NCBI GenBank assembly: GCA_004321885.1
Contig: SCQK01000008.1
Coordinates: 1-44,042 of the forward strand
Reading direction: 5' to 3'
Source of the DNA: Patescibacteria group bacterium
GTDB lineage: Bacteria > Patescibacteriota > Patescibacteriia > Magasanikbacterales > GWA2-37-8
DNA length: 44,042 nt
Below, one piece after another: positions 1,971-40,835 of the stretch. Within the stretch, counting starts at the first letter, position 1. Every line of letters starts with the position of its first letter. The notes under the pieces are model-generated. The model was not told where the DNA came from, did no database searches, and worked only from the letters and a program-made list of their open reading frames with translations. The position numbers and the translations under genes are program-made.

Positions 1971-2005
1971 CACCCCCTGCCCCTCCCCTTATAGGGGAGG
2001 GTGCG
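1971..2005. repeat. P1 palindromic element (CCCTCCCC-TTATA-GGGGAGGG with one extended arm).
   Basis: One of about 16 copies of this family in the window. Confidence 0.7.
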
Positions 2006-2006
2006 A

Positions 2007-2777
2007 TTAAACCCTCGGCGGGAGGTTTTCTTTATTCAAGAATTTTTTGATGTCGTCTATCGTACTCATGAATTGCGCCGGGAAGATGATGGTGGAATTT
2101 TTTTCAATGCTGATTTCCGCCATGGTCTGCAAGTTGCGCAGTTGCAGGGCGATGGGGTGGGCCATCATCACGTCGGCGGTATCGGCCAGTTTTTGCGAGG
2201 CCAGGAATTCGCCCTCGGCCGCGATGATTTTGGCGCGCTTTTCCCGTTCGGCTTCGGCCTGTTTGGCCATGGCCCTTTGCATGCCCTCGGGCAGTTCAAT
2301 ATCTTTTATTTCCACCACGGCCACGACCACGCCCCAGGCCTCGGTGTGCGCGTCCAACACCTTGGCGATTTCTTTGTTGATGGTTTCGCGCTCGCTTAGT
2401 ATTTCGTCCAATTGAAATTTGCCCACGATGTTTCGCACCGAGGTTTGCGCGATTTGGTTGATGGCCGACATTACGTTTTCAATGGCCACGATGCTTTTGA
2501 TGGAGTCCACAATTTTATAATAAGCCACGGCCGACACGTCCACGGACACGTTGTCTTTGGTAATAATTTTCTGCGGCGGAATGGGCAGGGTAACGGTGCG
2601 AAAATCCACCTTGCGCATCTGTTCAATAATTGGAATAATCCAGCTTAAGCCGGGTTCTTTGACGCGCACGATTTTACCCAGGCGGAAAACCACGCCTTTT
2701 TGGTATTGCTGGACAATGCGCAGGCCCCAGAAAATGACGATGACCGCGATGACTATAATCCACCATGTTAGCGACAT
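2007..2777 (-). CDS. SPFH/band-7 (stomatin/HflC-like) membrane protein of about 256 aa.
   Basis: N-terminal TM (MSLTWWIIVIAVIVIFWGL), then a typical SPFH body and coiled-coil (…EREKRAKIIAAEGE…). The start is set at the internal ATG at 2775-2777. The upstream extension consists of repeat DNA. Confidence 0.8.
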   Translation of the reverse strand: MSLTWWIIVIAVIVIFWGLRIVQQYQKGVVFRLGKIVRVKEPGLSWIIPIIEQMRKVDFRTVTLPIPPQKIITKDNVSVDVSAVAYYKIVDSIKSIVAIENVMSAINQIAQTSVRNIVGKFQLDEILSERETINKEIAKVLDAHTEAWGVVVAVVEIKDIELPEGMQRAMAKQAEAEREKRAKIIAAEGEFLASQKLADTADVMMAHPIALQLRNLQTMAEISIEKNSTIIFPAQFMSTIDDIKKFLNKENLPPRV

Positions 2778-2802
2778 ATGGTTTTGATTAGTGAATGAGT
2801 AC

Positions 2803-2840
2803 CCCTCTCTATCTCTCCCCTTATCAAGGGGAGAGAAAAG
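2803..2840. repeat. P1 palindromic element, CTCTC variant (ctctcccc-ttatcaa-ggggagag).
   Basis: Inverted repeat in the SPFH 5' region. Confidence 0.6.
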
Positions 2841-2886
2841 TAAGTGTACAGTACAATACCTCTGTTTTTTTGTCCACAGGGGTGGC

Positions 2887-2914
2887 TTGCGTGAAAAAAA
2901 ATATCTGCTATAAT
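2887..2914 (+). promoter_or_regulatory. Sigma70-like promoter: TTGCGT, a 16-nt spacer, TATAAT.
   Basis: -35 element at 2887-2892 and a consensus -10 at 2909-2914. It would drive the DUF4430 / surface-protein operon. Confidence 0.45.
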
Positions 2915-3101
2915 GCACTGGCGACAATTCAAGTGTATTTGTGGAAGTGAGGTATCGGGCTTTTGGCCCTTAATTCCTCCACTGTGCCGCAACGGTAATG
3001 GTCGCCTTCGGCGACCGAGTCCGGTCTTCAAATATACTAAATCTCCCGAGCAGGAAATATTGTTTTCGCGTCAATTTCTGCTCGGCAGAAATTTTTTTGT
3101 T

Positions 3102-3716
3102 ATGAAAGGGATTCTTCCCCGCCCCGGGCAGGTCAGAATGACAATCGGGATGTTGATTTTGCTGATTTTAATCGCGATAGCGAGCGGGGTGTGGTTGTTG
3201 TTGGCAGAACAGAAAGATGCGAATACCCCTCTCTCTGTCTCTCCCCTAAAGGGGGAGAGAAGTTTGGATGCCTCTCCCCCTCCTGACATTCAGGCTCCAC
3301 AGCCCCGACGTAAAGTCGGGGACTATGGAGCCAGCCTCGTTACCCCTCCCCAACCCTCCTCCCGAAACAAGTTCGGGACAAGCTCTTATAAAGTGGAGGG
3401 TACGGCCACGAGCGCGCCGGTCGTTGGCGCGAAAATGCTCATCGGCGGGCAAGAGTTTATTTTTTCCGTCCCCGCGGGCGCCACGGTTTATGACGCCATG
3501 AAACAGCTGGCGGATGAGAAAAAAATATTTTTCAGCGGCAAAGAATACGCGGGCATGGGATTTTTTGCGGAAGAAATAAACGGCTTGCAAAACGGTGACG
3601 GCGGCAAGTATTGGATTTATTATGTCAACGGCCAGCAGGCAAAAGTAGGAGTCTCAAGTTATTTAATTAAATCAAGTGACATAATTTCTTGGGTGTATGA
3701 AAACGAAAAATTTTAG
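3102..3716 (+). CDS. DUF4430-like (transcobalamin-like C-terminal domain) membrane-anchored protein. The start is ambiguous among ATGs at 3102, 3138 and 3150.
   Basis: N-terminal TM (MLILLILIAIASGVWLLLA). The C-terminus (GKYWIYYVNGQQAKVGVSSYLIKSSDIISWVYE) matches the DUF4430 pattern. The linker contains two in-frame palindromic elements. The ATG at 3138 lies inside a P6 element. Confidence 0.55.
   Translation: MKGILPRPGQVRMTIGMLILLILIAIASGVWLLLAEQKDANTPLSVSPLKGERSLDASPPPDIQAPQPRRKVGDYGASLVTPPQPSSRNKFGTSSYKVEGTATSAPVVGAKMLIGGQEFIFSVPAGATVYDAMKQLADEKKIFFSGKEYAGMGFFAEEINGLQNGDGGKYWIYYVNGQQAKVGVSSYLIKSSDIISWVYENEKF
3108..3143. repeat. P6-family element; it overlaps the probable start codon.
   Basis: Compare the copy at 1928-1964. 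Confidence 0.6.
3226..3262. repeat. P1 palindromic element, in-frame inside the CDS (it encodes …PLSVSPLKGERS…).
   Basis: cccctctctctgtctctcccc-taaag-ggggagagaag. Confidence 0.65.
3295..3335. repeat. P2 hairpin element (gctccacagccccgac-gtaaa-gtcggggactatggagc), in-frame inside the CDS (it encodes …APQPRRKVGDYGAS…).
   Basis: A second copy lies at 40567-40606, intergenic. Confidence 0.65.
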
Positions 3717-13664: not shown

Positions 13665-13831
13665 AAATATTGTTCTGGATTCCGGTCGCCTGCGGCGACT
13701 GGAATGACAGAGTAATGTGGTGCAAACTCCCGACTGAATCGGGATCCCACGTTGCCCCGATTATATAATAAAGAAGGTTGTTTTGTCAAGATGTTGCGAA
13801 AAAGCGCGTTTTAGGTTAGAATATTGAAAAT

Positions 13832-14888: not shown

Positions 14889-16142
14889 ATGCGCTACTCG
14901 CAACTTTTCGGGAAAACCAGTAAAACTGCGCCGGCCGACGCCGACAGCGTCAATGCCCAGCTCTTAACCAAGGGCGGGTTTATTGCCAAGCAGATGGCCG
15001 GTGTTTATAATTATCTGCCGTTGGGGCTTCGTGTTTTAACAAAAATTCAAAATATCATCCGTGAGGAGATGAACGCAATCGGCGGAAATGAAATACTGAT
15101 GCCCGCGTTGACGTTGGAAGAAAGTTATAAAGAAACCGGAAGAGACGTCGTCTTGGCCGATATACTTTTTAAGAGCGAAGGCCGTGATGGAAGCAAAATG
15201 GTTCTCAATCCAACCTGCGAAGAAGTAATTACGCCGCTGGTAAAAAAATTTGTCTTTTCCCATCGCGATTTGCCGCTGGCGGTCTACCAGATACAAAACA
15301 AGTTTCGCAACGAGCCGCGCGCCAAATCCGGTTTGCTTCGCGGGCGCGAATTCAACATGAAGGATTTGTATTCTTTTCATAAAGACGAAAATGATTTGAA
15401 TGAGTATTATGAAAAAGCCAAGCAAGCGTATTTTAATATCTACAATCGCGTGGGGTTGGGTGATATTACCGTCTTAACTTATGCTTCCGGCGGGGCTTTC
15501 AGCAAATACTCTCATGAGTTTCAAACTTTAACCGATATCGGCGAGGACACGATTTATTTGTGCGAGAAATGCAAAGTGGCCGTAAATAAAGAAATTATTG
15601 ACGAGCAAAAAGCCTGTCCTTCTTGCGGAAATAAAAAATTGATTGAACAAAAAGCTGTTGAAGTCGGTAATATCTTTAAATTGCGGACGAAGTTTTCCGA
15701 TGCTTTTTCATTTTATTATGCTGATGAAAACGGCAAGCAAAAAATAGTTGAAATGGGGACGTATGGTATTGGCCCGTCGCGACTGATGGGCGCGCTGGTG
15801 GAAGTTTTCCACGATGACAAGGGAATAATTTGGCCCGAAGCCGTGGCGCCGTATCAATATCATTTGCTCACTATCGGCAAAGAAGCTGAAGCGGCCAAAG
15901 CCGGCGAGAAGTTATACGCCGATTTGCTGAAAAAAGATACGGAAGTGTTGTATGACGACCGCGACGCTTCGCCCGGCGCCAAACTGGCAGACGCCGACCT
16001 GCTCGGCATCCCCACGCGTTTGGTAATATCAAAAAAGACATTAGAAAAAAATAGTGTGGAAGTGAAGAAAAGAAATGAGAAGGAAGCGAAATTGGTCGCG
16101 CTGTCTGTCATTGCGAGCGAAGCGAAGCAATCCCAAACTTAA
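14889..16142 (+). CDS. proS: Prolyl-tRNA synthetase, compact form of 417 aa with no editing insertion. It carries a Cys4 insert (CEKC…CPSC).
   Basis: N-terminus MRYSQLFGKT…, class II motifs. The last 14 codons are supplied by a P3 repeat element. Confidence 0.85.
   Translation: MRYSQLFGKTSKTAPADADSVNAQLLTKGGFIAKQMAGVYNYLPLGLRVLTKIQNIIREEMNAIGGNEILMPALTLEESYKETGRDVVLADILFKSEGRDGSKMVLNPTCEEVITPLVKKFVFSHRDLPLAVYQIQNKFRNEPRAKSGLLRGREFNMKDLYSFHKDENDLNEYYEKAKQAYFNIYNRVGLGDITVLTYASGGAFSKYSHEFQTLTDIGEDTIYLCEKCKVAVNKEIIDEQKACPSCGNKKLIEQKAVEVGNIFKLRTKFSDAFSFYYADENGKQKIVEMGTYGIGPSRLMGALVEVFHDDKGIIWPEAVAPYQYHLLTIGKEAEAAKAGEKLYADLLKKDTEVLYDDRDASPGAKLADADLLGIPTRLVISKKTLEKNSVEVKKRNEKEAKLVALSVIASEAKQSQT
16098..16137. 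repeat. P3-family half element (gtcattgcgagcgaagcgaagcaatccc) forming the 3' end of proS.
   Basis: It matches the left arms at 17556, 17650, 18522, 21402 and 40884. Confidence 0.65.
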
Positions 16143-16158
16143 TGTGTTAAACCCTCCT

Positions 16159-17553: not shown

Positions 17554-17555
17554 CT

Positions 17556-17642
17556 GTCATTGCGAGCGAGTCGCAGACGAGCGCGGCAATCCCATTCGTG
17601 TTTGGGGTTGCTTCACTCCACTTCGTTCCGTTCGCAATGACA
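17556..17642. repeat. Complete P3 MITE-like palindrome (gtcattgcgag…cgcggcaatccc / ggggttgcttc…cgcaatgac).
   Basis: Solo copy with both arms present. Confidence 0.65.
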
Positions 17643-17649
17643 ATCGTCT

Positions 17650-18056
17650 GTCATTGCGAGGTCGCCTGCGGCGACCGAAGCAATCCCATACAATCAAGTA
17701 TGCCGAAACGCAAGCAGTATTATGTTTACATAATGACCAACAAGAATAATACTGTTTTGTATACCGGTGTTACCAACAGTTTAGTCCGTAGAGCCTACGA
17801 ACACAAAAGCAAGTTCAGTTTTTATGAAAGTTTTACAAAAAAATACAATATCAATAAACTCGTCTATTACGAATGTTTTGATAATGTGAATAACGCGATT
17901 ACCAGAGAAAAACAGATAAAAGCCGGTTCGCGAAAAAAGAAAATAGATCTAATCAATAAAATGAATCCTATTTGGCGGGATTTGTATGGAGAACTTTACC
18001 CTGATTAGGGATGGGATTGCTTCGTCGGTCGCCTGCGGCGACCTCCTCGCAATGAC
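17650..18056 (+). mobile_element. GIY-YIG nuclease gene enclosed by P3-type terminal inverted repeats: IR-L 17650-17687, CDS 17700-18008, IR-R 18013-18056.
   Basis: IR-L is gtcattgcgag-gtcgcctgcggcgac-cgaagcaatccc. IR-R is gggattgcttcg…gtcgcctgcggcgacc…ctcgcaatgac, its near-exact reverse complement, including the shared core gtcgcctgcggcgac. Confidence 0.5.
17700..18008 (+). CDS. Small GIY-YIG nuclease-superfamily protein (YhbQ/UPF0213-like, about 102 aa).
   Basis: YYVYIMTNKNNTVLYTGVTNSLVRRAYEH, the GIY-YIG core. The ORF-track start at 17598 lies inside repeat DNA; the ATG at 17700 is taken as the start. Confidence 0.7.
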   Translation: MPKRKQYYVYIMTNKNNTVLYTGVTNSLVRRAYEHKSKFSFYESFTKKYNINKLVYYECFDNVNNAITREKQIKAGSRKKKIDLINKMNPIWRDLYGELYPD

Positions 18057-18061
18057 AGTAA

Positions 18062-18099: not shown

Positions 18100-18105
18100 T
18101 TATAG

Positions 18106-18510: not shown

Positions 18511-18521
18511 ATATCTTGTTT

Positions 18522-18608
18522 GTCATTGCGAGGAGGTCTGCAGACCGACGCGGCAATCCCAATGTTGAAAGGGATTGCTTCGGTCGCCACAGGCGACCTC
18601 GCAATGAC
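18522..18608. repeat. P3 MITE-like palindrome, an 'empty' copy with no cargo.
   Basis: It lies exactly between the trpS stop and the start of the 18106..18510 gene. Confidence 0.65.
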
Positions 18609-18611
18609 AGA

Positions 18612-19625
18612 TTAAAGTCCTATTAAATTTCTAACCCCTTCCATTGTTTTGTCCGCCACCTTTTGCGCTTTGGCCGCGCCGTCTCTCATTATCTTGTCCA
18701 GCTTGGCCGGATTTTTTAACAGCTCGGCGCGTTTGGCGCGGAAATCGGCGAAATAATTGGCAATCGCTTTGGCCAATTCGTCTTTCAGCTCACCGTATCT
18801 TATTGTGCCGTCCTTTTCCGCTTTGACAAATCTTTCGTAGCTGGATTCCCCCGTACTTAGTCGGGGGAATGACAGACCGGATTCGAACTTTTGCAGGAGC
18901 ATCAACAGGTTTATCACCCCGGGCGCTTGGCCGCCGCCTTCGGTGGCCGTCACGGCGCGTTTGATTTTTTGTTCTATCACGCCCGGCTCGTCAGCCATCT
19001 CAATCACGTGGTCGGCGCCCAAACTTTTGCTCATTTTTTTATTGGGTTCCAGCAAGCTCATTACTTTGGGCGTTTCGGTGAGCAGATGTTTTGTTTCCGG
19101 AAAATACGCCCCGTATTTTTTATTGAACCAGCGAGCAATGTCGCGGGTCAGCTCTACGTGTTGGATTTGGTCTTGGCCCACCGGCACCATTTCGCCTTTG
19201 TACATTAATATATCCGCCGCCTGCAAAATCGGATAGGTAAAAAGTCCGGCCGTGGACATTTTAAGTTGCGCTGTTTTGTCTTTATATTGAGTCATGCGCT
19301 CCAGTTCGCTCATCGGGGTGAGACAGTTCAAAATCCAGGCCAGCTCGGCGTGGCCGGCGATACGCGATTGAAAATAAAAAGTCGTTTTCTTCGGGTCAAT
19401 GCCGGCGGCCAAAAGTTCAGCGGCCGTTGTCCGCGTTTGCGCGCGCAGTTCGTCGGGTGTCATTTTTCCAGAAAGCGAATGCAGGTCGGCGATAAAAATA
19501 TACATTTCATACTTGCCCGAGTTTTGTAAATCCACCCAATTTTTTACCGCGCCCAAATAATTGCCGATATGCAGGTTGCCCGTGGGCTGAATGCCCGAGA
19601 CGATGATGTGTTTGTGATTGGACAT
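18612..19625 (-). CDS. trpS: Tryptophanyl-tRNA synthetase.
   Basis: HIGNYLG (HIGH-class) and KMSKS motifs. An in-frame P2-type hairpin at 18848-18871 encodes …SFPRLSTGES…. Confidence 0.9.
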   Translation of the reverse strand: MSNHKHIIVSGIQPTGNLHIGNYLGAVKNWVDLQNSGKYEMYIFIADLHSLSGKMTPDELRAQTRTTAAELLAAGIDPKKTTFYFQSRIAGHAELAWILNCLTPMSELERMTQYKDKTAQLKMSTAGLFTYPILQAADILMYKGEMVPVGQDQIQHVELTRDIARWFNKKYGAYFPETKHLLTETPKVMSLLEPNKKMSKSLGADHVIEMADEPGVIEQKIKRAVTATEGGGQAPGVINLLMLLQKFESGLSFPRLSTGESSYERFVKAEKDGTIRYGELKDELAKAIANYFADFRAKRAELLKNPAKLDKIMRDGAAKAQKVADKTMEGVRNLIGL

Positions 19626-19664: not shown

Positions 19665-20135
19665 TTAGTAATGGTATTTACGTCCGCCGTTTATCATCAG
19701 CGCGCGGTAAATTTGCTCCAGCAAAAACACCCGGCACATTTGGTGCGTGAAAGTCAGGGGGGACAAAGAAAGCTCTAAATCGGCTTTTTGCCGGACGGAA
19801 GAATGTAGGCCGAGCGGTCCGCCGATAATAAAGGTGATATTTTTTCGCGTCTGTGTCTGGGAAAGCTGTTTTGCCAATTCGGTGGAAGAAAATTGTTTGC
19901 CGTGTTCGTCCAGGGCGATGATAAAATCATCCGTTTTCGGCAGGGCGTTTAAAATTTTGTCCGCTTCTTTTTGTTTTATCGTTTCCGGGCTGTCTTTTTC
20001 GCCAAAGGCCTCTTCTTTCAGTTCGCGGATTTCAATTTTCGTAAAAGGTTTCAACCGTTTTAAATATTCGGCTTCGGCCTCGCGCCAATACGATTCTTTC
20101 AGCTTGCCCAGGCAGATGATGTTAGTTTTTGGCAT
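19665..20135 (-). CDS. rlmH: 23S rRNA m3Psi1915 methyltransferase RlmH (SPOUT family).
   Basis: Collinear with RlmH (…IIGGPLGL…LTFTHQMCRVFLLEQIYRA…). Confidence 0.8.
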   Translation of the reverse strand: MPKTNIICLGKLKESYWREAEAEYLKRLKPFTKIEIRELKEEAFGEKDSPETIKQKEADKILNALPKTDDFIIALDEHGKQFSSTELAKQLSQTQTRKNITFIIGGPLGLHSSVRQKADLELSLSPLTFTHQMCRVFLLEQIYRALMINGGRKYHY

Positions 20136-21345
20136 ACGATTGCCATTCTTTTTTTAATTTCAAAAATTTGTCTTCGGCGATGGCCGCGCGGATTTGTTTC
20201 ATCAAATCCAAAAAGAAATGCAGATTGTGAATGGTGGCCAGGCGCATGGCCGAGAGCTCCCCGGCGTTAAAAAGATGGCGCAAGTAGGCGCGGGAATAAT
20301 GTTGGCAGGTGTGACAGGCGCAGTTTTTGTCTATCGGCTTGGCGTCGCTAGCGAACCGCGAGTTGGTGATGTTTATGCGATACCCCTCCCCAGCCCTCCC
20401 CTTATTAAGGGGAGGGAGAAAGAGCATGCCGTGGCGGGCCAAGCGGGTGGGGGCCACGCAGTCAAACATGTCTATGCCGCGTTCCACCACTTCAAAAATG
20501 TCCAAAGGCGACAGCCCCAGACCCATGCTGTAGTGGGGCTTGTCGGGCGGAAGCAGGGGGTAGACCCAATCCAAAATTTCTTTGGTCGCGGACATGTTGT
20601 AGCCGATAGATTCGCCGCCGACGGCGATGCCGTCAAAATCCATGGCGGAAATATGGCGCGCTGATTCTTCACGCAAGTCGCGGTGATTGGAGCCCTGGAC
20701 GATGCCGAAGAGATGTTGCCGATACCCCTCCCTCACCCTCCCCTTATAAAGGGGAGGGGATGATAGATGATATTCCAAACATCTTTTCGCCCATCTGTGC
20801 GTGCGTTCCATTGCTTCGCGCGCATACTTAGCATCAACATTGTCCGGCGCGCATTCGTCAAAGGCCATGATAATGTCCGCGTCCAGTTTGTGCTGGATTT
20901 TTATTGACGACTCGGGCGTGAAGCGATGCGTGGAGCCGTCTATGTGGCTTTTGAAGGTGACACCGTCCTTGTCTATTTTCGCCAAACGCTCTTTGCGAAA
21001 CTCCACCCCTTGTCCCTCCCCTAATAGGGGAGGAATTTGTTTGCCCAAACTGAAAACCTGGAATCCGCCGCTGTCGGTAAGCATTGGTCTGTCCCAATTC
21101 ATGAATTTGTGCAAGCCGCCCAGTTTGGCGACAATATCTTCGCCCGGGCGTAGATGCAAATGGTAAGTGTTTCCTAAAATTATTTGCGCGTTCAAATCGC
21201 GCAAATCAAAAGAATCCAGGGATTTTACGGTCGCTTGCGTGCCCACGGGCATGAAAGACGGTGTTTCAATGTCGCCGTGCTCGGTATGAATTACGCCCGT
21301 CCGCGCTCGGCTGTTTTTGTCTTGATGAAACGTTTCAAAAAACAT
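20122..21345 (-). CDS. tgt: Queuine tRNA-ribosyltransferase (tRNA-guanine transglycosylase). It carries three in-frame palindromic-element insertions.
   Basis: Full-length Tgt similarity including the zinc site CxCxxC…H (CACHTCQHYSRAYLRHL). The insertions encode [25 protein letters not shown] and PPLLGEGQG. Confidence 0.9.
   Translation of the reverse strand: MFFETFHQDKNSRARTGVIHTEHGDIETPSFMPVGTQATVKSLDSFDLRDLNAQIILGNTYHLHLRPGEDIVAKLGGLHKFMNWDRPMLTDSGGFQVFSLGKQIPPLLGEGQGVEFRKERLAKIDKDGVTFKSHIDGSTHRFTPESSIKIQHKLDADIIMAFDECAPDNVDAKYAREAMERTHRWAKRCLEYHLSSPPLYKGRVREGYRQHLFGIVQGSNHRDLREESARHISAMDFDGIAVGGESIGYNMSATKEILDWVYPLLPPDKPHYSMGLGLSPLDIFEVVERGIDMFDCVAPTRLARHGMLFLPPLNKGRAGEGYRINITNSRFASDAKPIDKNCACHTCQHYSRAYLRHLFNAGELSAMRLATIHNLHFFLDLMKQIRAAIAEDKFLKLKKEWQSYAKN
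20384..20421. repeat. P1 palindromic element, in-frame in tgt.
   Basis: cccctccccagccctcccc-ttattaa-ggggagggagaaag. Confidence 0.75.
20725..20770. repeat. P1 palindromic element, in-frame in tgt.
   Basis: cccctccctcaccctcccc-ttataaa-ggggagggga. Confidence 0.75.
21003..21034. repeat. P1 palindromic element, in-frame in tgt.
   Basis: ccctcccc-taata-ggggagg. Confidence 0.7.
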
Positions 21346-21401
21346 ACTTTAACTAAATGGTAAGGTATTTTGCAGGTTATGGCAAGACATGGTATGCTTT
21401 T

Positions 21402-21489
21402 GTCATTGCGAGGACCCGCCCGGGGCGGGGACGAAGCAATCCCATTCATAAGCGCGAGAGATTGCTTCGGCCTACGGCCTCGCAATGAC
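21402..21489. repeat. P3 MITE-like palindrome in the tgt/uvrD divergent intergenic region.
   Basis: gtcattgcgag…cgaagcaatccc … gattgcttcgg…ctcgcaatgac. Confidence 0.65.
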
Positions 21490-21494
21490 AACCT

Positions 21495-28479: not shown

Positions 28480-28691
28480 TTAAGCTGGAAAATCTGAAAA
28501 AAGGGCTGAATAAGCACAAAGGGCTTAACAAACAGGGTGTCATTCTGAACGAAGTGAAGAATCCCTGTCGCACATTTCAATACAAATGGCGGATGACAGA
28601 ACCTGTGGAGGAGAGACCACGGGCGGACACAAAGCCAATTTTCTAAAAGCAATAGGGCCTCTCTCCAATTTGGATAGAGGCCCTTTTCGTT
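28480..28691 (+). ncRNA. Candidate small RNA of about 210 nt, bounded by the consensus promoter and an intrinsic terminator. Identity unknown.
   Basis: No ORF. It contains a P6-like internal hairpin (cagggtgtcattctgaacgaagtgaagaatccctg). Confidence 0.3.
28655..28691 (+). terminator. Intrinsic terminator gggcctctctcc-aatttg-gatagaggccc followed by ttttcgtt.
   Basis: An 11-12-bp stem with one mismatch, followed by a T-tract. Confidence 0.55.
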
Positions 28692-28734: not shown

Positions 28735-28752
28735 CGATCCGCCTTTGGCGGA
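28735..28752. repeat. P4 mini-hairpin (gATCCGCC-TTTGG-CGGAT).
   Basis: Further copies at 32303-32319 and 37217-37233. Confidence 0.5.
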
Positions 28753-29100
28753 TGTTGCTTACGCGGATGAGGGAGAGAACTTATTCATTTCCTCATCCGT
28801 TGAAGCAATGTGAACAACAAAGTTTCAACGCCACTTGTCGTGGATTGTACATTAAAATGCTCCTCCGCGAGTCCGGGCGACCGGTCCGCGGGTTGCGAAA
28901 AGCATCGTCTGGTTATTCGTATGAGTAGGAGAGAGTCCTACCGATAACAAGATGATTTCTCTGTTTGCTCCCGCCCAAGGCGGGAGACCGGGCGGAGAGT
29001 GTCCCACGATGCGGCGAAAGCCGAGTCCGGGCGCTCGCGGTCCGGCTATATGCCTACAGAGACATATAGTACCGAGTGCGCCCTAAATCCGATCACAACT

Positions 29101-29125
29101 GTCATCCTGAATTTATTTCAGGATC
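29101..29125. repeat. P5 hairpin (GTCATCCTGAA…TTCAGGATC).
   Basis: Second copy at 37111-37135. Confidence 0.5.
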
Positions 29126-29166
29126 TCCGTTCGGTCGGAGGCGGGGCAGACGATCCCATATCATTT

Positions 29167-29203
29167 CCTCCCCCTTAATAAGGGGGAGGTTAGGAGGGGG
29201 TAA
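29167..29203. repeat. P1 palindromic element.
   Basis: cctccccc-ttaataa-gggggaggttaggaggggg. Confidence 0.65.
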
Positions 29204-29320
29204 ATTGGATCGCCTGCCTCGCCGGAATCCTTGGAGAGAAAAGCGAGTCGGCGCTATTGAGAGAGTAGGCCTGGAGCACTTTGACAATTTATCCACTAAA
29301 GCTGGCAACTGTCGTTTTTT

Positions 29321-29354
29321 CTCCCCTCAATAAGGGGAGGACGAAGGAGGGGTG
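29321..29354. repeat. P1 palindromic element.
   Basis: ctcccctc-aataa-ggggaggacgaaggagggg. Confidence 0.65.
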
Positions 29355-32245: not shown

Positions 32246-32255
32246 TACTCGGTTG

Positions 32256-32285: not shown

Positions 32286-32442
32286 GCCCATCATAATTTT
32301 TTATCCGCCTTGGGCGGATTGAAAATTGCGATGGGGACCCAAACCGCGGGGTTGTCCTGCGTGGAGGGAAAAGTGAGAGAGCTTTGCCCTCCCCAGGGCA
32401 AGCCCAATCCGAGCGCCAACAATAGGTGCGAGGAGGTTTGCG

Positions 32443-36207: not shown

Positions 36208-36340
36208 AATGGCGGTATGTCCGCCCGCGTTAGGCCGCAGTGGCGCGTAAGAAATATCTGCGACACACTCGGTGTTTGAGGAACGGCTTGCACAAGCGCT
36301 CCTCTTCACCCGCATAGCGACAAAGGAGATTTCTCGCTTA

Positions 36341-36390
36341 CCCCTCACCAACTCTCCCCTTATAAAGGGGAGAGAGAATGAGGGTAAAGG
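36341..36390. repeat. P1 palindromic element at the right edge of the GC-rich island.
   Basis: cccctcaccaactctcccc-ttataaa-ggggagagagaatgaggg. Confidence 0.6.
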
Positions 36391-37001: not shown

Positions 37002-37245
37002 ATATTTGTCAATACTTAACAAAGATATAAACATGGCAGTTCTTGACACTTTTTCCCCCTTTCTATATACTATTGCCAAGAACGTTACCCCGAGTAATCG
37101 GGGCACCCGAGATCCTGAAACAAGTTCAGGATGACAGGGAACTCGTGGCTGAGCTTCATCGTTCAGCTTTTTGTTAACGACAGAAATTTAAGAATTAAAT
37201 TTCTTGTCAGTTAACAATCCGCCTTTGGCGGATATTCATTATTTA

Positions 37246-37280
37246 CCCCTCCCTGCCCTCCCCTTATTAAGGGGCGGGGA
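37246..37280. repeat. P1 palindromic element immediately upstream of rpsL. Its right arm may serve as the SD.
   Basis: cccctccctgccctcccc-ttattaa-ggggcgggg; the ATG follows 13 nt later. Confidence 0.65.
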
Positions 37281-37844: not shown

Positions 37845-38375
37845 ATGCGTGGAAGCAAAAAACAGGAAAAGCGGCCAATCGCGGCCGACCCAAAATATGG
37901 TTCGGTCCAACTGGCCAAGTTTATCAATTATGTGATGGAAAGGGGCAAGAAAACCGTGGCCCGAGCAATCGTTTACGGCGCTTTGGAAAACATCGCCGAA
38001 TCCGCCTCTGCCAAAGGAGTAGATGCGTCCTCTGGCGCCAAAGGCGGACAGGGCGGCAAAAAAGACGCGCTCAAAGTTTTTGAGGAAGCCGTGCGCAACG
38101 TGGCCCCCCAGGTAGAGGTGCGCTCGCGGCGCGTGGGCGGAGCCAACTATCAGGTGCCCATGCCTGTCAGCTCCTCGCGCCAGCACGCCCTTACTTTCCG
38201 CTGGATTATAGACGCGGCGCGCAATAAAAAAGGCCTGCCCATGGCCAAAAAGCTAGCCCAGGTTTTGCTTGACGCCAGCAACAACACCGGCGACGCCATG
38301 AAAAAGCGCGACGACGTGCATAGAATGGCCGAAGCCAACAAGGCCTTCGCGCACTTTGCCCGCTTTGCTAAATAA
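37845..38375 (+). CDS. rpsG: 30S ribosomal protein S7, with an insertion of about 14 aa (…[14 protein letters not shown]…).
   Basis: S7 similarity (…[16 protein letters not shown]…[15 protein letters not shown]). The start is at the ATG at 37845. Confidence 0.85.
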
Positions 38376-38381
38376 TTCTAT

Positions 38382-40457
38382 ATGCCCCGAGAATATACAT
38401 TGGATAAAACCAGAAACATCGGCATCATGGCCCACATTGACGCCGGCAAAACCACCACCACCGAGCGCGTGTTGTTTTACACGGGTAAGAAACACAAAAT
38501 CGGCGAGGTGCACGAGGGCGCGGCCGAGATGGACTGGATGGAGCAGGAAAAAGAGCGCGGCATTACGATTACTTCCGCCGCGACAACCTGTTTCTGGAAA
38601 GACCATCGTATAAATATAATTGACACCCCGGGCCACGTGGACTTTACCGTGGAAGTGGAGCGCAGTTTGCGCGTGCTTGACGGCGCCGTGGCCGTGTTTG
38701 ACGGCTCGCAAGGCGTGGAACCACAATCCGAAACCGTCTGGCATCAGGCCGACAAATACAACGTCCCGCGCGTCGCCTTTATAAACAAAATGGACAAGAT
38801 GGGCGCGGATTTTTACATGTCTTTGGATTCCATTCGCGAACGTTTATCCAAAGACGCTTATCCGGTTCAACTGCCCATCGGCAGCGAGGGAACTTTTTCC
38901 GCCTTGATTGATTTGATAGAAGAAAAAGCCTTTAGATACGAAGGCAAGAACGGCGAGAACATCGTGGAAATTCCCATTCCCGAAGACATGAAAGAAAAGG
39001 TGAAAAAATACCGCGCCGAGCTGGTGGAAAAAGCCGCCGAAGGCGATGACACACTCATGGAAAAATTTTTGGGCGGGCAGGCGCTTTCAAATGAAGAAAT
39101 CCGCCGCGGCATCCGCGCCCTGACTTTGCAAGGCAAAATGTATGCCGTGCTCTGCGGCGCCGCGCTGTCTAACATTGGCGTGCAAAATATGCTTGACGCC
39201 GTGGTTTGGTATTTGCCTTCGCCTTTGGACATGCCGCCGGTAAAAGGCGTTAACCCTGACACCGAAGCCGAAGAAACTCGCGACGCCGACGACAACAAAC
39301 CGTTCGCGGCTTTGGCCTTTAAGATTGCCACCGACCCGTTCGTGGGTAAATTGATTTTCTTCCGCGTGTATTCCGGACACGTCAGCGCCGGCAGTTATGT
39401 GTACAATTCTTCCAACGGCAACAAAGAACGTTTGGGAAGAATTTTGCGCATGCACGCCAATCACAAAGAAGACGTGACCGACGTCTACGCCGGTGAAATC
39501 GCCGCGGCCATCGGTCTCAAGTCAACTTTTACCGGCGATACTTTGTGTGATGAAAACCATCCGATCGTATTGGAAAAAATTGTTTTCCCGGAGCCGGTTA
39601 TCTCAGTGGCCATTGAGCCGAAAACCAAAGCCGACCAGGAAAAAATCGGCATGGCCATGCAAAAACTGATGGAAGAAGACCCGACGTTCAAGGTGCGCAC
39701 GGACGAAGAAACCTTGCAGACCATCATCTCGGGCATGGGCGAATTGCATTTGGATATTATTGTGGACCGCATGAAGCGCGAATTCAAAGTGGAAGCCAAT
39801 GTGGGCAAGCCCCAGGTGGCTTACAAAGAAACCATCCGTATTACTGCCGAAGCCGAAGGCAAGTACATCAAGCAATCGGGCGGCCGCGGCCAATACGGCC
39901 ACTGCTGGCTGCGCGTGGAGCCCGTGGAGCGCGGGGCCGGCTATGAATTTGTTGATGAAGTTAAAGGCGGCGTGATCCCCAAAGAATATTTGCCGGCCAT
40001 TGAAAAAGGCATCAAAGAAGCCATCACCCGCGGTATTCAGGCCGGCTATCCGGTGGTGGATTTGAAATGTTTCTGTTACGACGGTTCGTACCATGAAGTT
40101 GACTCTTCCGAGGCGGCCTTCAAGATGGCCGGCTCCATGGCTTTCCAGTCGGCCTGCCGCAAGGCCAGTCCGGTTATTTTGGAACCGATAATGAAGGTGG
40201 AAGCCGTTACTCCCGAACAATACATGGGCGATGTCATCGGCGACCTCAATTCCAAACGCGGACAAATTCAGGAAATGTTTGACCGCGGTCAGATGAAAGT
40301 GGTGAAGGCCATGGTGCCGCTCGCCACAATGTTCGGCTACGCCACCACCTTGCGCAGTATTTCCCAGGGCCGCGCCAGCTACACCATGGAGTTTGGCCAT
40401 TACGCCGAAGTGCCAAACAATGTGGCCGCGGAAATCATCGCCGGAAAACAGAAGTGA
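38382..40457 (+). CDS. fusA: Elongation factor G.
   Basis: [12 protein letters not shown] and DTPGHVDF motifs, full length of 691 aa. Confidence 0.95.
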
Positions 40458-40606
40458 CCCCGACGTTACGTCGGGGTCATCCTGACCCTGCACCGCTCTG
40501 GTGCAGGGGAAGGATTCCTTTCTCATTCGCTGGCTCCATACTTTGTGTGGAGCCAGTTTGCGTTATGGCTCCACAGCCCCGACTTGGTCGGGGACTATGG
40601 AGCCAG
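40457..40606. repeat. Cluster of P2-type hairpins after fusA: gaccccgacgttacgtcggggtc (40457-40479), ctgcaccgctctggtgcagg, ctggctccatactttgtgtggagccag, and gctccacagccccgac-ttg-gtcggggactatggagc (40567-40606).
   Basis: Four consecutive inverted repeats. Confidence 0.55.
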
Positions 40607-40667
40607 CGGAGATTCGCGCGGCCGTTTTTTTTATCCACAATTTTATGGTGAAACAACGATAAAATTA

Positions 40668-40676
40668 TGGTATAAT
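40668..40676 (+). promoter_or_regulatory. Extended -10 element (TGgTATAAT) for the large surface-protein gene.
   Basis: tggtataat at 40668-40676. No good -35 element. Confidence 0.35.
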
Positions 40677-40795
40677 ATATGTGTTAGATTTTCTGTTTTT
40701 ATGCTCGCAGGCGTAAAGGCGATATATTTGCGTTTGAAGCACAAATTATTTTGTGTATTTTTTAAGCACTCGTTAAGGCGGGCGTTCTCTTTGAA

Positions 40796-40835
40796 TCCCT
40801 CCCCTGTTAGGGGAGGGACAAAGGGTGGGGTATGT
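40796..40835. repeat. P1 palindromic element.
   Basis: tccctcccc-tgtta-ggggagggacaaagggtgggg. Confidence 0.6.

What the first reader, a model, noticed from the sequence alone, without database searches (positions are those of the whole stretch)
1971..40835. A dispersed family of at least 16 short asymmetric palindromes (P1) plus several further hairpin families (P2-P6) saturate this genome segment
I located P1 copies at 1971, 2803, 3226, 20384, 20725, 21003, 21877, 22465, 22509, 23555, 29167, 29321, 36341, 37246, 37726 and 40796. Each has one long arm containing an internal duplication (ccctcccc-NN-ccctcccc) and one short arm, so its orientation can be scored. Other families are present:
- P2: gctccaYagccccgac…gtcggggactatggagc.
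- P3: gtcattgcgag…cgaagcaatccc, a palindrome of about 90 bp.
- P4: atccgcctttggcggat.
- P5: gtcatcctgaa…ttcaggatgac.
- P6: gggattcYtccccgccc…gaatgaca.
This is about one element per 1.5 kb, found in intergenic regions, 5' leaders and coding sequence alike. Such density of MITE-like DNA is unusual for a small, compact genome. It suggests an active or recently active mobilisation mechanism.
Basis: seen in the sequence. Interest (0 to 1): 0.7.

Follow-up and report, generated by a model that had tools for sequence, protein, structure and literature searches.

The report
Nuclease-linked mini-repeats invade CPR genes
This 44-kb contig from a tiny-genome Patescibacteria bacterium carries about 43 copies of two already-described kinds of short self-folding DNA repeats, many of them read in frame inside essential genes. 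Tracing one kind through other genomes points to a partner enzyme, a DUF559 endonuclease, that I found no report of.

Summary
All 16 listed P1 copies exist, plus one chimera, and 14 pass an objective three-arm scan (15 hits against 0.03 in shuffles).

P1's "internal duplication" is really a mirror repeat. Pyrimidine arm, mirrored pyrimidine arm and complementary purine arm make an intrastrand-triplex motif of the known BoxC/PIT/TM kind. Its core occurs almost verbatim in Nostocales, Aliivibrio, many CPR lineages, Nitrospira and others.

P3, P5 and P6 are one superfamily: TGTC-tagged REP hairpins, also known as Ssn-related motifs. Their partner nuclease gene lies in the window (17701-18008), bracketed by inverted P3 units. 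P2 and P4 are three-copy local hairpins.

Nine P1 copies lie in frame inside Tgt, UvrD and a DUF4430 protein. They fall in loops or linkers where related CPR Tgt genes carry independent insertions.

The calls "MITE-like" and "recently active" are only partly supported. I found no TIR/TSD. Copies are diverged. No close relative exists to test polymorphism.

New lead: DUF559 (Vsr-like) endonuclease genes are flanked by inverted triplex motifs in 7/7 protein-selected loci, and E. coli ycjD sits beside a BoxC. BoxC-like copy number tracks the ycjD locus (median 15.5 against 3).

The parts
1968..2003 (+). P1 triplex motif (variant), 4 nt downstream of the SPFH gene stop
2801..2838 (+). P1 triplex motif (arms CCCCTCTC/CTCTCCCC/GGGGAGAG), 18 nt upstream of the SPFH start codon (5' leader)
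3225..3260 (+). P1 triplex motif, in frame in the linker of the DUF4430 protein (TPLSVSPLKGER)
3342..3378 (+). P1 chimera: P1 arms 1 and 2 joined to a P5-like hairpin, in frame in the DUF4430 linker (TPPQPSSRNKFG)
20382..20418 (+). P1 triplex motif inside tgt, read in frame as [12 protein letters not shown] (Tgt residues 309-322)
20724..20760 (+). P1 triplex motif inside tgt, read in frame as [12 protein letters not shown] (residues 195-208)
21001..21036 (+). P1 variant (weak first arm) inside tgt, read in frame as IPPLLGEGQGVE (residues 103-116)
21878..21916 (+). P1 triplex motif (C7 arms) inside uvrD/pcrA, read in frame as HPPSIPPSGRGG
22464..22500 (+). P1 triplex motif inside uvrD, in frame (TPPQPSPYKGEG); first half of an inverted doublet
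   Evidence: (I11)
22508..22545 (-). P1 triplex motif inside uvrD, in frame (SSPFIRGRLGGG); second half of the inverted doublet
   Evidence: (I11)
23553..23589 (-). P1 triplex motif inside uvrD near the C-terminus, in frame (FSSLAKGRDSEG)
29165..29202 (-). P1 triplex motif (arms CCCCCTCC/CCTCCCCC), intergenic
29317..29353 (-). P1 triplex motif (arms CCCCTCCT/TCCTCCCC), intergenic
36340..36376 (+). P1 triplex motif, intergenic; a partial fourth arm follows
37245..37280 (+). P1 triplex motif, 13 nt upstream of the rpsL start codon
37725..37748 (+). Truncated P1 (arms 1 and 2 only) between rpsL and rpsG
40795..40831 (-). P1 variant, downstream of fusA (inside a doubtful ORF)
17701..18008 (+). ssn-like gene: 102-aa single-domain GIY-YIG nuclease, bracketed by inverted P3 units
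   Evidence: Pfam GIY-YIG 1.3e-13; 42.9% identity, E 9e-17 to the gonococcal ssnA ortholog; flank statistics
1929..1964 (-). SRM/TGTC-REP unit (P6 type; outer stem ATTCC/GGAAT, inner hairpin CCCGCCC..GGGCGGG)
3108..3143 (-). SRM unit (P6 type; ATTCT/AGAAT) at the 5' end of the DUF4430 gene; encodes KGILPRPGQVRMT if the first ATG is used
13678..13711 (-). SRM unit (ATTCC/GGAAT, inner hairpin GTCGCC..GGCGAC) upstream of rplA
16106..16135 (+). SRM unit (short P3) forming the C-terminal extension of the class II aaRS (…SVIASEAKQSQT*)
17555..17595 (+). SRM unit (P3), left half of a 90-bp dimer
17603..17642 (-). SRM unit (P3), right half of the 90-bp dimer
17649..17689 (+). SRM unit (P3) 12 nt upstream of the ssn-like gene, tail facing the gene
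18012..18057 (-). SRM unit (P3) 4 nt downstream of the ssn-like gene, in inverted orientation
18521..18561 (+). SRM unit (P3), left half of a dimer
18569..18609 (-). SRM unit (P3), right half of the dimer
   Evidence: (I1)
18841..18874 (-). SRM unit inside the class Ib aaRS gene; the only unit that matches the published SRM search string
21401..21447 (+). SRM unit (P3 with inner CCCGCCC hairpin), left half of a dimer between tgt and uvrD
21455..21490 (-). SRM unit (P3), right half of the dimer, 5 nt before the uvrD start
28538..28565 (+). SRM unit (ATTCT/AGAAT, short)
29100..29127 (+). SRM unit (P5 type: TGTC-ATCCTGAA-loop-TTCAGGAT-CTC)
   Evidence: (I18)
37109..37136 (-). SRM unit (P5 type)
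   Evidence: (I18)
40475..40517 (+). SRM-like unit with a GGTC tag (ATCCT/AGGAT, inner hairpin CCCTGCACC..GGTGCAGGG) just after fusA
40862..40880 (+). SRM fragment (5' half only)
40883..40913 (+). SRM unit (P3), left half of a dimer
40944..40980 (-). SRM unit (P3), right half of the dimer
3294..3331 (.). P2 palindrome, in frame in the DUF4430 linker (APQPRRKVGDYGA)
40533..40553 (.). P2 outer stem without the inner hairpin
40568..40603 (.). P2 palindrome
28737..28753 (.). P4 hairpin ATCCGCCTTTGGCGGAT
32303..32319 (.). P4 hairpin
37217..37233 (.). P4 hairpin, 11 nt before the P1 copy upstream of rpsL
20122..21345 (-). Host gene tgt carrying three in-frame P1 copies
   Evidence: Pfam TGT 4e-146 with 390 residues aligned to 351 profile positions
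21495..23711 (+). Host gene uvrD/pcrA carrying four in-frame P1 copies
   Evidence: Pfam UvrD-helicase 2e-81 and UvrD_C 1.7e-56
3103..3716 (+). Host gene for a DUF4430 protein. Its 5' end overlaps an SRM unit, and its linker holds P1, P2 and the P1 chimera in frame.

Best explanation
The window is a contig of a Patescibacteria (CPR) genome close to Magasanikbacteria. It is colonised by two widespread superfamilies of small repeats that fold as single strands, plus two minor local hairpins (P2, P4).

(1) P1
- P1 is a 34-38-nt intrastrand-triplex motif. Its parts are a leading A, a pyrimidine arm (CCCCTCNN), a 2-3-nt spacer, the mirror-image pyrimidine arm (NNCTCCCC), an AT-rich loop (TTATNAA) and the complementary purine arm (GGGGAGNN).
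- One strand can form a hairpin with the first arm laid in its groove (C+.G-C and T.A-T triplets). The complementary strand has the Py-Pu-Pu layout that was shown by NMR to form a triplex in the E. coli BoxC/TM-ECO repeats.

(2) P3, P5 and P6
- These are TGTC-tagged REP hairpins, also called Ssn-related motifs. Each has an unpaired TGTC tag, a stem that starts with AT, a swappable inner hairpin, and a C-rich tail.
- Their partner is the small GIY-YIG nuclease at 17701-18008, which sits between two inverted units.
- By homology to Neisseria SsnA, it should bind the hairpin on single-stranded DNA and cut a few bases 5' of the tag.

How they behave
- Both kinds behave as selfish or domesticated DNA that multiplies within genomes and moves between phyla.
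- In this gene-dense genome (85% coding) copies persist where they are tolerated: intergenic DNA, 5' leaders, gene ends, and in frame in surface loops and linkers of proteins.

Inferred partner for P1
- P1's partner is probably a DUF559 (Vsr-like PD-(D/E)xK) endonuclease encoded elsewhere in the genome.
- In other genomes this gene is bracketed by inverted triplex motifs, with the ACCCC end facing the gene.

Shown: repeat anatomy, distribution, in-frame positions, and the gene-repeat associations.
Inferred: triplex folding of P1 itself, the nuclease activities, and the copying mechanism.
For: P1 anatomy
- The three-arm scan gives 15 hits against 0.03 expected.
- Mirror plus complement is kept across arm classes (92, 14, 4 and 1 copies in mirror-consistent classes, about 6 exceptions).
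- Further arm classes appear at DUF559 flanks.
- The hairpin is stable: -11.5 kcal/mol, z -3.9 to -5.0.

Known kind
- PMC4666352 reports Py-loop-Pu-loop-Pu repeats with triplex formation shown by CD and NMR, abundant in Enterobacteria and Cyanobacteria.

Cross-phylum spread
- The exact 33-nt pattern occurs in more than 109 stretches. They come from Nostocales, Aliivibrio, Cellvibrio, many CPR lineages, Nitrospira, Ignavibacteria, Anaerolineae and Eisenbacteria.

In-frame copies
- Insert-free orthologues are shown.
- 26, 17 and 14 of 120 Tgt homologues carry inserts at the same three loops.
- DNA of two relatives shows three triplex motifs, or one SRM, inside tgt.
- In the AlphaFold model the three segments are low-confidence coil.

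SRM and Ssn
- The arrangement in the window is shown.
- In 80 metagenome loci a forward unit lies upstream in 57/75, a reverse unit downstream in 57/76, and both in 39/71. Background is 0.76 units per kb.
- The same layout occurs with a variant repeat in L087.
- The window protein is homologous to the gonococcal ssnA ortholog, which is flanked by NTS repeats.
- The published biochemistry is in PMC11893778. The CGTC-REP description is in PMC3733652.

DUF559
- 7/7 protein-selected loci have flanking triplex motifs and 6/7 have them on both sides. All 6 have TM(-) upstream and all 7 have TM(+) downstream; three loci carry an additional motif in the other orientation. The control density is 0.081 per kb.
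- Among viral-contig relatives 8/16 have one, with the same polarity.
- E. coli ycjD has the only TM-ECO in 30 kb, 168 nt downstream.
- BoxC-like places per E. coli genome have a median of 15.5 with the ycjD locus against 3 without it.
Against: - No DUF559 gene or remnant is in the window, so the link to these particular P1 copies is by analogy.
- Four of the first DUF559 loci were found in DNA already selected for P1, so they are ascertainment-biased.
- Half of the distant viral DUF559 genes lack triplex motifs.
- The E. coli copy-number contrast is not corrected for phylogeny.
- Triplex folding of P1 is untested, and C+.G-C triplets need protonation.
- The exact TM-ECO consensus has 0 matches in the window, and the published SRM search string matches only 1 of 20 units.
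- P1 copies are diverged (median 68% identity). No close relative exists, so no insertion event is dated or directly shown in this genome.
- In Neisseria, Ssn was shown to modulate transformation, not to copy repeats.
Confidence: 0.7

Rival explanations
1. The hairpins are ordinary host regulatory structures, such as intrinsic terminators, mRNA stabilisers or protein-binding sites. They would have arisen or been kept locally and would not be mobile or nuclease-linked.
For: - Several copies sit right after stop codons or in 5' leaders.
- The hairpins are stable.
- In DUF559 loci the distal purine arm doubles as a Shine-Dalgarno sequence.
Against: - Only 1 of 17 P1 copies has a T-run after the hairpin.
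- Nine P1 copies and several SRM units lie inside coding sequence.
- The same 33-nt sequence occurs in unrelated phyla.
- The repeats bracket nuclease genes in inverted pairs.
- Rfam has no match.
Confidence: 0.1
2. The elements are classical MITEs, moved in trans by a DDE transposase such as the IS256/Mutator family member whose fragment lies at 30551-31018.
For: - A transposase fragment is present in the window.
- P3 dimers look like paired terminal inverted repeats of about 90 bp.
Against: - I saw no target-site duplication at P1 copies or at the four P3 dimers (read from the sequences).
- P1 has no terminal inverted repeats.
- The gene found between inverted P3 units is a GIY-YIG nuclease, not a transposase, in the window and in 80 other loci.
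- The transposase fragment has no P1 or P3 ends.
Confidence: 0.04
3. The DUF559 association runs the other way. DUF559 genes would be homing-type selfish genes that insert preferentially next to pre-existing triplex motifs, or the motifs would be that gene's own expression signals. P1 copies would then spread by another route, such as recombination, template switching or an unknown enzyme.
For: - The upstream motif supplies the ribosome-binding site and the downstream one overlaps the stop codon.
- The left and right motifs of one cassette are different subtypes.
- Free P1 doublets in the window are (+)(-), whereas cassettes are (-)gene(+). Orphans are therefore not simple internal-deletion derivatives.
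Against: - The polarity is constant across at least five phyla.
- BoxC-like copy number in E. coli falls about five-fold where the ycjD locus is absent. That is expected if the enzyme maintains the repeats.
- The parallel with Ssn-SRM and RAYT-REP also favours the main reading.
Confidence: 0.2
4. P1 is kept because its G-rich strand forms a G-quadruplex (GGGGAGGGTTGGGGAGGGG), or because it works as an anti-Shine-Dalgarno/Shine-Dalgarno switch. The triplex geometry would be incidental.
For: - The commonest variant has four G-tracts separated by 1-, 2- and 1-nt loops.
- The purine arm resembles a strong Shine-Dalgarno sequence (read from the sequences).
Against: - Variants with A-interrupted arms (GGGGAGAG..GAGAGGGG at 2801, 3225, 36340) cannot form a three-tetrad quadruplex, yet they keep the mirror-plus-complement relation.
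- For the E. coli relative, NMR showed a triplex and not a quadruplex.
Confidence: 0.08

Closest known systems
BoxC / PIT elements / TM-ECO intrastrand triplex motifs (Hoyne, Maher and co-workers 2000, as cited in PMC4666352; Holder et al. 2015, PMC4666352)
   Same: - Three consecutive blocks on one strand (Py-loop-Pu-loop-Pu, or its complement).
- G/C-rich 8-10-nt arms.
- Dozens of dispersed copies.
- Abundant in Cyanobacteria and Enterobacteria.
- No transposase nearby.
   Different: - The consensus differs: CCCTCCCC-TTATNAA-GGGGAGGG-NN-GGGGAGGGGT. The TM-ECO pattern has 0 matches in the window.
- The host is a CPR bacterium.
- Half of the copies lie in frame inside genes, whereas TM-ECO is described relative to intergenic space.
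- The association with DUF559 genes was not reported. Holder et al. state that they found no mobility functions.
Ssn-related motifs (NTS/SRM) with the SsnA GIY-YIG ssDNA nuclease (Chenal et al. 2025, PMC11893778)
   Same: - A small single-domain GIY-YIG gene flanked by hairpin repeats that carry an (H)GTC tag and a C after the palindrome.
- Many orphan copies.
- Protein homology of 43% identity, E 9e-17, to the gonococcal ortholog.
   Different: - The outer stem is ATTGC/GCAAT with a variable inner hairpin, so only 1 of 20 units fits the published SRM string.
- The host is a CPR bacterium.
- Units lie inside coding sequence.
- Orthologues at 66-78% identity occur across very distant phyla.
CGTC-tagged REPs (Di Nocera et al. 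2013, PMC3733652), including Neisseria dRS3 and Rickettsia RPE-4 and RPE-6
   Same: - The tag is CGTC or TGTC.
- Stems begin with AT.
- There is an unpaired C-rich tail.
- Units are mostly inverted dimers. P5 fits with an 8-bp stem and a 5-6-nt loop.
   Different: - P3 and P6 have compound stems (5-bp outer stem, internal loop, then an inner hairpin) rather than 8-9-bp simple stems.
- The 2013 paper found no dedicated enzyme.
Rickettsia palindromic elements (Ogata et al. 2000, as cited in PMC3184786 and from my own knowledge)
   Same: Palindromic selfish repeats inserted in frame into protein-coding genes of a reduced genome, tolerated at surface positions.
   Different: - RPEs are about 100-150 nt long, whereas P1 is 34-38 nt.
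- P1 has three-arm triplex geometry.
- P1 is not restricted to one genus.
REP/REPIN-RAYT systems (Bertels and Rainey 2011, PMC3116915)
   Same: Short hairpin repeats, often as inverted doublets, whose partner enzyme gene is flanked by the repeats and is present in about one copy.
   Different: - The enzyme here is a GIY-YIG nuclease, and possibly a DUF559 nuclease, not an IS200-like tyrosine (HUH) transposase.
- The tag is TGTC, not GTAG.
Cyanobacterial small dispersed repeats (Elhai et al. 2008; paper not held, cited from memory and from PMC3116915)
   Same: Very small (21-27 nt) hairpin repeats in Nostoc that nest within each other and within larger repeats.
   Different: I could not compare the sequences because the paper was not readable here. 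P1 in Nostoc may or may not be one of them.

Membership tests
Intrastrand triplex motif (BoxC/PIT/TM) | Three consecutive blocks on one strand: a pyrimidine stem, a mirror-related or complementary second stem, and a third stem that allows Watson-Crick plus Hoogsteen pairing. Stems are 6-15 nt with short loops. | tested here: met
   My own scan (8-nt arms, up to 2 mismatches, spacer 1-4, loop 3-8) gives 15 hits against 0.03 in shuffles. 14 of the 16 listed P1 copies pass.
Intrastrand triplex motif (BoxC/PIT/TM) | Match to the TM-ECO consensus CCCTCNCCC-N3-6-GGGNGAGGG-N3-GGGNGAGGG | tested here: not met
   0 matches in the window and 1 in the E. coli ycjD locus. P1 is a different sequence variant of the same architecture.
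Intrastrand triplex motif (BoxC/PIT/TM) | The arms co-vary so that the triplex-compatible relation is kept | tested here: met
   At least four arm classes keep the mirror-plus-complement relation. Further classes appear at DUF559 flanks. The copies are not independent events.
Intrastrand triplex motif (BoxC/PIT/TM) | Forms a triplex in vitro (CD, NMR) | not testable with these tools
   Shown only for the E. coli TM-ECO oligonucleotides.
Ssn nuclease / SRM repeats | Single-domain GIY-YIG protein of about 95-150 aa that is homologous to SsnA (the authors' criterion is E < 1e-10) | tested here: met
   The protein is 102 aa with GIY-YIG as its only Pfam domain. tblastn against the N. gonorrhoeae ssnA ortholog gives 42.9% identity and E 9e-17. 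That gene is 94 aa and flanked by NTS repeats.
Ssn nuclease / SRM repeats | The gene is flanked on both sides by its hairpin repeats | tested here: met
   The window has units at 17649-17689 (+) and 18012-18057 (-). In 80 homologous loci, 76% have one upstream, 75% downstream and 55% both.
Ssn nuclease / SRM repeats | The repeat fits the published degenerate SRM string HGTCWY..RNCYNB | tested here: not met
   Only 1 of 20 units fits (18841-18874), against 0.15 expected by chance. The tag, the AT start of the stem and the C after the palindrome are present in 19 of 20 units.
Ssn nuclease / SRM repeats | CDD family cd10448; site-specific cleavage of single-stranded DNA only | not testable with these tools
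   No CDD search or biochemistry was available. NCBIfam gave no hit. The best PDB match is a UPF0213 protein at E 0.005.
CGTC-tagged REP | An unpaired CGTC or TGTC tag, a stem starting with AT, an unpaired C-rich tail, and mostly inverted dimers | tested here: met
   19 of 20 units start TGTCAT. Tails are CCC(A) or CTC. There are four tail-to-tail dimers.
CGTC-tagged REP | A simple stem of 8-9 bp and a loop of 4-5 nt | tested here: inconclusive
   Met by the P5 units (8 bp, loop 5-6). P3 and P6 have a 5-bp outer stem plus an inner hairpin.
Rickettsia-type in-frame palindromic elements | The repeat is inserted inside an ORF without breaking the frame, at a position tolerated by the fold | tested here: met
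   Nine P1 copies lie in Tgt, UvrD and the DUF4430 protein. Insert-free orthologues exist. The segments are low-pLDDT coil in the model.
Rickettsia-type in-frame palindromic elements | Sequence relationship to the RPE families, which are about 100-150 nt long | not tested
   No RPE sequences were at hand. The literature equates RPE-4 and RPE-6 with CGTC REPs. P1 is far shorter.
MITE | Terminal inverted repeats, a target-site duplication, and a cognate transposase-encoding IS | tested here: not met
   I saw no duplication at P1 copies or at P3 dimers in the flanks printed. P1 lacks terminal inverted repeats. The only transposase fragment (30551-31018) is unrelated to the repeats.
REPIN-RAYT | GTAG-tagged REP doublets plus an IS200-like tyrosine transposase flanked by them | tested here: not met
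   There is no GTAG tag, and no Y1/HUH transposase appeared in any Pfam scan of the window. The layout is analogous only.
Proposed DUF559-triplex-motif system | A DUF559 (PF04480) gene bracketed by inverted triplex motifs | tested here: met
   Outside the window: 7/7 protein-selected loci, 8/16 viral-contig loci and E. coli ycjD.
Proposed DUF559-triplex-motif system | The partner gene is present together with the window's P1 copies | tested here: not met
   tblastn and a profile search of the six-frame translation found no DUF559 gene or remnant in the 44 kb. The rest of the genome was not available.

The most novel reading that the evidence does not exclude
Triplex-motif repeats of the BoxC/P1 kind may be the cognate repeats of DUF559 (Vsr-like) endonucleases. 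That would make a third nuclease-repeat partnership in bacteria, alongside RAYT-REP and Ssn-SRM, found from E. coli (ycjD-BoxC) to Cyanobacteria and CPR. On this reading the 17 P1 copies in this window, including those inside Tgt and UvrD, are orphan copies made or maintained by such an enzyme encoded elsewhere in the genome.
Probability: 0.5. Interest if true: 0.8.

Novelty: new member of a known kind. Interest (0 to 1): 0.6.

Why it matters
1. Two repeat systems known mainly from Proteobacteria and Cyanobacteria also saturate a CPR genome of about a megabase. There they are written into the sequence of essential enzymes, so part of the unusual loop content of CPR proteins is repeat-derived. 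Gene callers and aligners need to take this into account.

2. The window's GIY-YIG gene and its composite repeats extend the Ssn family beyond the published search motif. They offer new single-strand cleavage specificities.

3. BoxC and related triplex motifs have been orphan repeats since the 1990s. The DUF559 association gives a concrete and cheap experiment: test YcjD against BoxC in E. coli. It also gives a possible function for a very large family of uncharacterised small nucleases.

Tried and rejected
- Rfam at gathering thresholds found only the tRNA.
- Literature searches for the repeat sequences as text strings returned nothing relevant.
- The Elhai 2008 paper on cyanobacterial small dispersed repeats is not held. 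Identity of P1 with an SDR family stays open.
- I rejected the direct-duplication model of the P1 long arm. It fails for every arm that is not itself symmetric.
- I rejected the G-quadruplex as the conserved feature, because A-interrupted variants keep the element.
- I rejected intrinsic terminators, because only 1 of 17 P1 copies has a T-run.
- The exact TM-ECO pattern gave 0 hits in the window. The published SRM string gave 1 hit.
- I looked by eye for target-site duplications and for a target motif around P1 copies and P3 dimers and found none. The 'ataccc' context is the element's own first base.
- A search for a gene family recurring next to P1 across phyla gave DUF559 as the only cross-phylum cluster. 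The other clusters were housekeeping genes.
- A single-protein DUF559 query of viral contigs found nothing. The alignment query worked.
- NCBIfam did not name the GIY-YIG protein.
- P2 and P4 were not found in any of 217 fetched loci. Their nature is unresolved.

Full report
**What the window is**

The Tgt protein encoded at 20122-21345 is identical to a database entry from a 'Patescibacteria group bacterium' whose longest contig is 44,042 bp. The next-best Tgt proteins are at most 69% identical, and the named ones are Candidatus Magasanikbacteria. Pfam scans give a dense set of housekeeping genes. They include a nucleotide-metabolism operon, rplA, two aaRS genes, rlmH, tgt, uvrD and rpsL-rpsG-fusA. 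There is also a CPR-typical DUF5671 protein. About 85% of the window is coding.

**Checking the observation**

All 16 P1 coordinates hold a copy of one family. I found one more, a chimera at 3342-3378. The repeat finder groups them (families D2, D5, D6, D9). Hairpins in general are in excess, 136 against about 29 in shuffles.

The other families are also real, but need regrouping. P3, P5 and P6 all read (T)GTCAT...AT(C)CC. P2 and P4 have three copies each. Counting P1, P3/P5/P6, P2 and P4, there are about 43 elements, which make up 3.6% of the window.

**Anatomy of P1**

The long arm is not a direct duplication. Across the window and 109 loci from other genomes, the first arm is the mirror image of the second, and the third is the reverse complement of the second. 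Examples:
- CCCCTCCC / CCCTCCCC / GGGGAGGG
- CCCCTCCT / TCCTCCCC / GGGGAGGA
- CCCCTCTC / CTCTCCCC / GGGGAGAG
- CCCCTCTT / TTCTCCCC / GGGGAGAA

These classes hold 92, 14, 4 and 1 copies, with about six exceptions. A direct-repeat model fails for every asymmetric arm.

A pyrimidine arm, its mirror image and the complementary purine arm on one strand are the textbook layout of an intrastrand triple helix. A scan written for exactly that layout finds 15 sites in the window against 0.03 in dinucleotide shuffles, and 14 of them are P1. The Watson-Crick hairpin alone is stable: -11.5 kcal/mol, z -3.9 to -5.0.

**P1 is a known kind**

A literature search on this geometry led to Holder et al. 2015 (PMC4666352). 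The E. coli BoxC or 'PIT' repeats, renamed TM-ECO, have the pattern CCCTCNCCC-N3-6-GGGNGAGGG-N3-GGGNGAGGG. They form a triplex in vitro by CD and NMR. They occur 3,610 times in 262 proteobacterial genomes. G/C-rich motifs of this sort are abundant in Microcystis, Anabaena and Nostoc.

P1 has the same architecture but a different consensus. The TM-ECO pattern has no match in the window. The authors noted that they never found mobility functions near the motifs.

**P1 is almost identical across phyla**

The hosts include:
- many Nostocales and other Cyanobacteria
- Aliivibrio, Cellvibrio and uncultured Gammaproteobacteria
- Magasanik-, Nomura-, Zambryski- and Paceibacteria, and Saccharibacteria
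- Nitrospira, Ignavibacteria, Anaerolineae and Eisenbacteria

The hits include finished genomes of isolates, so this is not an assembly artefact.

**P1 inside genes**
- Three copies lie in tgt and read [24 protein letters not shown] and PPLLGEGQGVEF.
- Four lie in uvrD/pcrA.
- Two more, together with P2, make up most of the linker between the membrane anchor and the DUF4430 domain of the protein at 3103-3716.
- All nine keep the reading frame, and Pfam domains continue on both sides.

Insert-free Tgt orthologues lack these segments. Among 120 Tgt homologues, lengths run from 379 to 449 aa. Inserts cluster at the same three loops, in 26, 17 and 14 proteins respectively. They read like translated repeats of several kinds, for example SPLQGEGQGVR, PLTKREREG, CEERGTSDEAIQ and VILSETKDPS.

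DNA fetched for two of these relatives shows three triplex motifs inside tgt in one, and a P3-type unit inside tgt in the other. An AlphaFold model of the window's Tgt (mean pLDDT 85) puts all three P1-encoded segments in coil with low confidence.

This is the behaviour described for Rickettsia palindromic elements. It amounts to insertion polymorphism at the family level. No close relative exists with which to date events in this genome.

**P3, P5 and P6 are TGTC-tagged REPs, also called Ssn-related motifs**

Each unit has an unpaired TGTC, a stem that starts with AT, usually an internal loop and a swappable inner hairpin, and a C-rich tail. The stem comes in four compensatory versions. The inner hairpin can be GTCGCC-NNN-GGCGAC, CCCGCCC-NGG-GGCGGG or CGAAGCG.

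This matches the 'CGTC-tagged REPs' of Di Nocera et al. 2013. That paper describes a tag often changed to TGTC, stems starting with AT, a CCA tail, and mostly inverted dimers. It also includes Neisseria dRS3 and Rickettsia RPE-4 and RPE-6, and it could find no dedicated enzyme.

The window encodes a 102-aa GIY-YIG protein (17701-18008) that lies between two inverted P3 units. Its homologues are 66-78% identical in Patescibacteria, Bacteroidota, WOR-3, Rivularia, Calothrix, Ignavibacteriales and Methylacidiphilales. That is far more conserved across phyla than Tgt is within its own class.

I examined 80 metagenome loci for this protein:
- a forward P3 lies within 150 nt upstream in 57/75
- a reverse P3 lies downstream in 57/76, at a median of 10 nt
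- both are present in 39/71
- the background is 0.76 units per kb

A 47%-identical paralogue in a Magasanikbacteria genome is bracketed by a variant hairpin.

This is the Ssn system published in 2025 (PMC11893778). SsnA is a small GIY-YIG nuclease that binds its hairpin repeat (NTS/SRM) only as single-stranded DNA and cuts a few bases 5' of the GTC tag. In Neisseria it modulates natural transformation.

The window's protein is 43% identical (E 9e-17) to the gonococcal ortholog, which I confirmed is flanked by NTS repeats. The published degenerate SRM string matches only one of the 20 units here. These are therefore new repeat variants within the family.

**A partner for P1**

I clustered ORFs lying within 1.5 kb of P1 in the 109 loci. 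The only cluster spanning CPR, Gammaproteobacteria and Cyanobacteria was a small DUF559 (PF04480, Vsr-like) endonuclease.

In these loci the gene is bracketed by P1. A reverse copy ends 3-10 nt before the ATG and a forward copy starts at or just after the stop codon. Because these loci had been selected for P1, I fetched DUF559 homologues by protein similarity alone. About 40-50 of 120 homologues have C-terminal tails that read as translated P1, for example [22 protein letters not shown] and KPPCSPPLSKGGR.

I then scanned the flanks for triplex motifs, allowing a nested hairpin in the spacer:
- All 7 independent loci have motifs, and 6 have them on both sides. All 6 have a reverse-oriented motif upstream and all 7 a forward-oriented one downstream. 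Three loci carry an additional motif in the other orientation.
- Control DNA has 0.081 motifs per kb.
- Of 16 more distant relatives in viral contigs, 8 have a motif, with the same polarity.

In E. coli K-12 the DUF559 gene ycjD runs into a degraded BoxC at its stop codon. The only exact TM-ECO in the surrounding 30 kb lies 168 nt downstream, preceded by a duplicate of the gene's 3' end.

The ycjD gene is present in 3,378 of 5,426 complete E. coli genomes. In an evenly spaced sample, genomes with the ycjD-adjacent locus have a median of 15.5 BoxC-like places (n=34). Genomes without it have a median of 3 (n=22). The Mann-Whitney P is 4e-9, not corrected for phylogeny.

No paper in the searchable library links DUF559 or YcjD with BoxC or triplex motifs. 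The window itself holds no DUF559 gene or remnant.

**How it most likely works**

Shown:
- the anatomy of both repeat families
- their distribution
- their in-frame positions
- their association with two small nuclease families

Inferred from the Ssn biochemistry and from the REP-RAYT parallel:
- The nucleases recognise the folded single strand, at replication forks, on transforming DNA or in extruded structures, and nick beside it.
- Repair or strand transfer then copies or maintains the repeats.
- In a genome that is 85% coding, surviving copies are those in intergenic DNA, at gene ends, and in loops and linkers. Only stop-free frames can persist there, and four of the six frames of P1 are stop-free.

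Whether the repeats are purely selfish is open. They could instead serve the host, for example by limiting recombination of incoming DNA as in Neisseria.

**Verdict**

The two main families are new members of known kinds.

The in-frame colonisation of essential CPR genes is of moderate interest. The DUF559 association is outside the window and needs confirmation, but it could resolve what makes BoxC-type repeats.

Noticed in passing
window 1-1340 (minus strand): An ORF running off the window start is built of at least six tandem 69-aa (207-nt) repeats. The recurring motif is ...APEGWMTN.G.A...HPEWFKIYLDK...EH.HP.LI.LIK.
   Followed up: no
window about 29,400-36,300: This segment has a G+C content of 0.54-0.60, against 0.42-0.52 elsewhere. 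It starts next to tRNA-Ser (30239-30314). It holds an IS256/Mutator transposase fragment (30551-31018) and a MoxR-VWA gene pair. It looks like an acquired island. A 49-nt direct repeat lies at 29514-29562 and 30037-30085 (92% identical).
   Followed up: no
L063 1770-1815; L206 and L201 upstream flanks: In DUF559 cassettes the distal purine arm of the upstream triplex motif doubles as the gene's Shine-Dalgarno sequence, for example TTAAGGAGGGGTAGTATG. The downstream motif overlaps the stop codon.
   Followed up: partly
L193 (E. coli K-12 1,351,200-1,351,760) and the E. coli genome collection: ycjD is polymorphic, present in 3,378 of 5,426 complete genomes. The BoxC downstream of it is preceded by a ~50-nt duplicate of the ycjD 3' end. 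BoxC-like copy number is about five-fold higher in genomes with this locus.
   Followed up: partly
window 3000-3018, 5713-5731, 18060-18100, 40455-40479: The inner hairpins of the composite repeats (GTCGCC-NNN-GGCGAC; CCGACG-NNN-CGTCGG) also occur on their own. The families therefore look modular or nested, and the P1 chimera at 3342-3378 carries a P5-like loop.
   Followed up: no
L002, L033, L039 (Nostoc); L024, L034, L107 (Aliivibrio): In Nostoc and Aliivibrio the P1 core sits inside longer palindromic repeats, for example aatccttgaatc-P1-ggcaagatttcaag and atcgcaatg-P1-aactgtattgcg. This suggests nested insertion into other repeat families.
   Followed up: no
window 16106-16160: A P3 unit supplies the last 12 codons and the stop of the class II aaRS gene (...SVIASEAKQSQT*). 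It also gives a spurious N-terminal extension (MRRKRNWSRCLSLRAKRSNP...) to the next ORF.
   Followed up: partly
proteins P0122-P0240 and P0242-P0360: Many homologues of both small nucleases sit on contigs of only 0.5-2 kb. That is expected if their repeat-rich surroundings break metagenome assemblies.
   Followed up: no
window about 41,100-44,042 (plus strand): A very large ORF of more than 980 aa runs off the window end. I did not characterise it.
   Followed up: no
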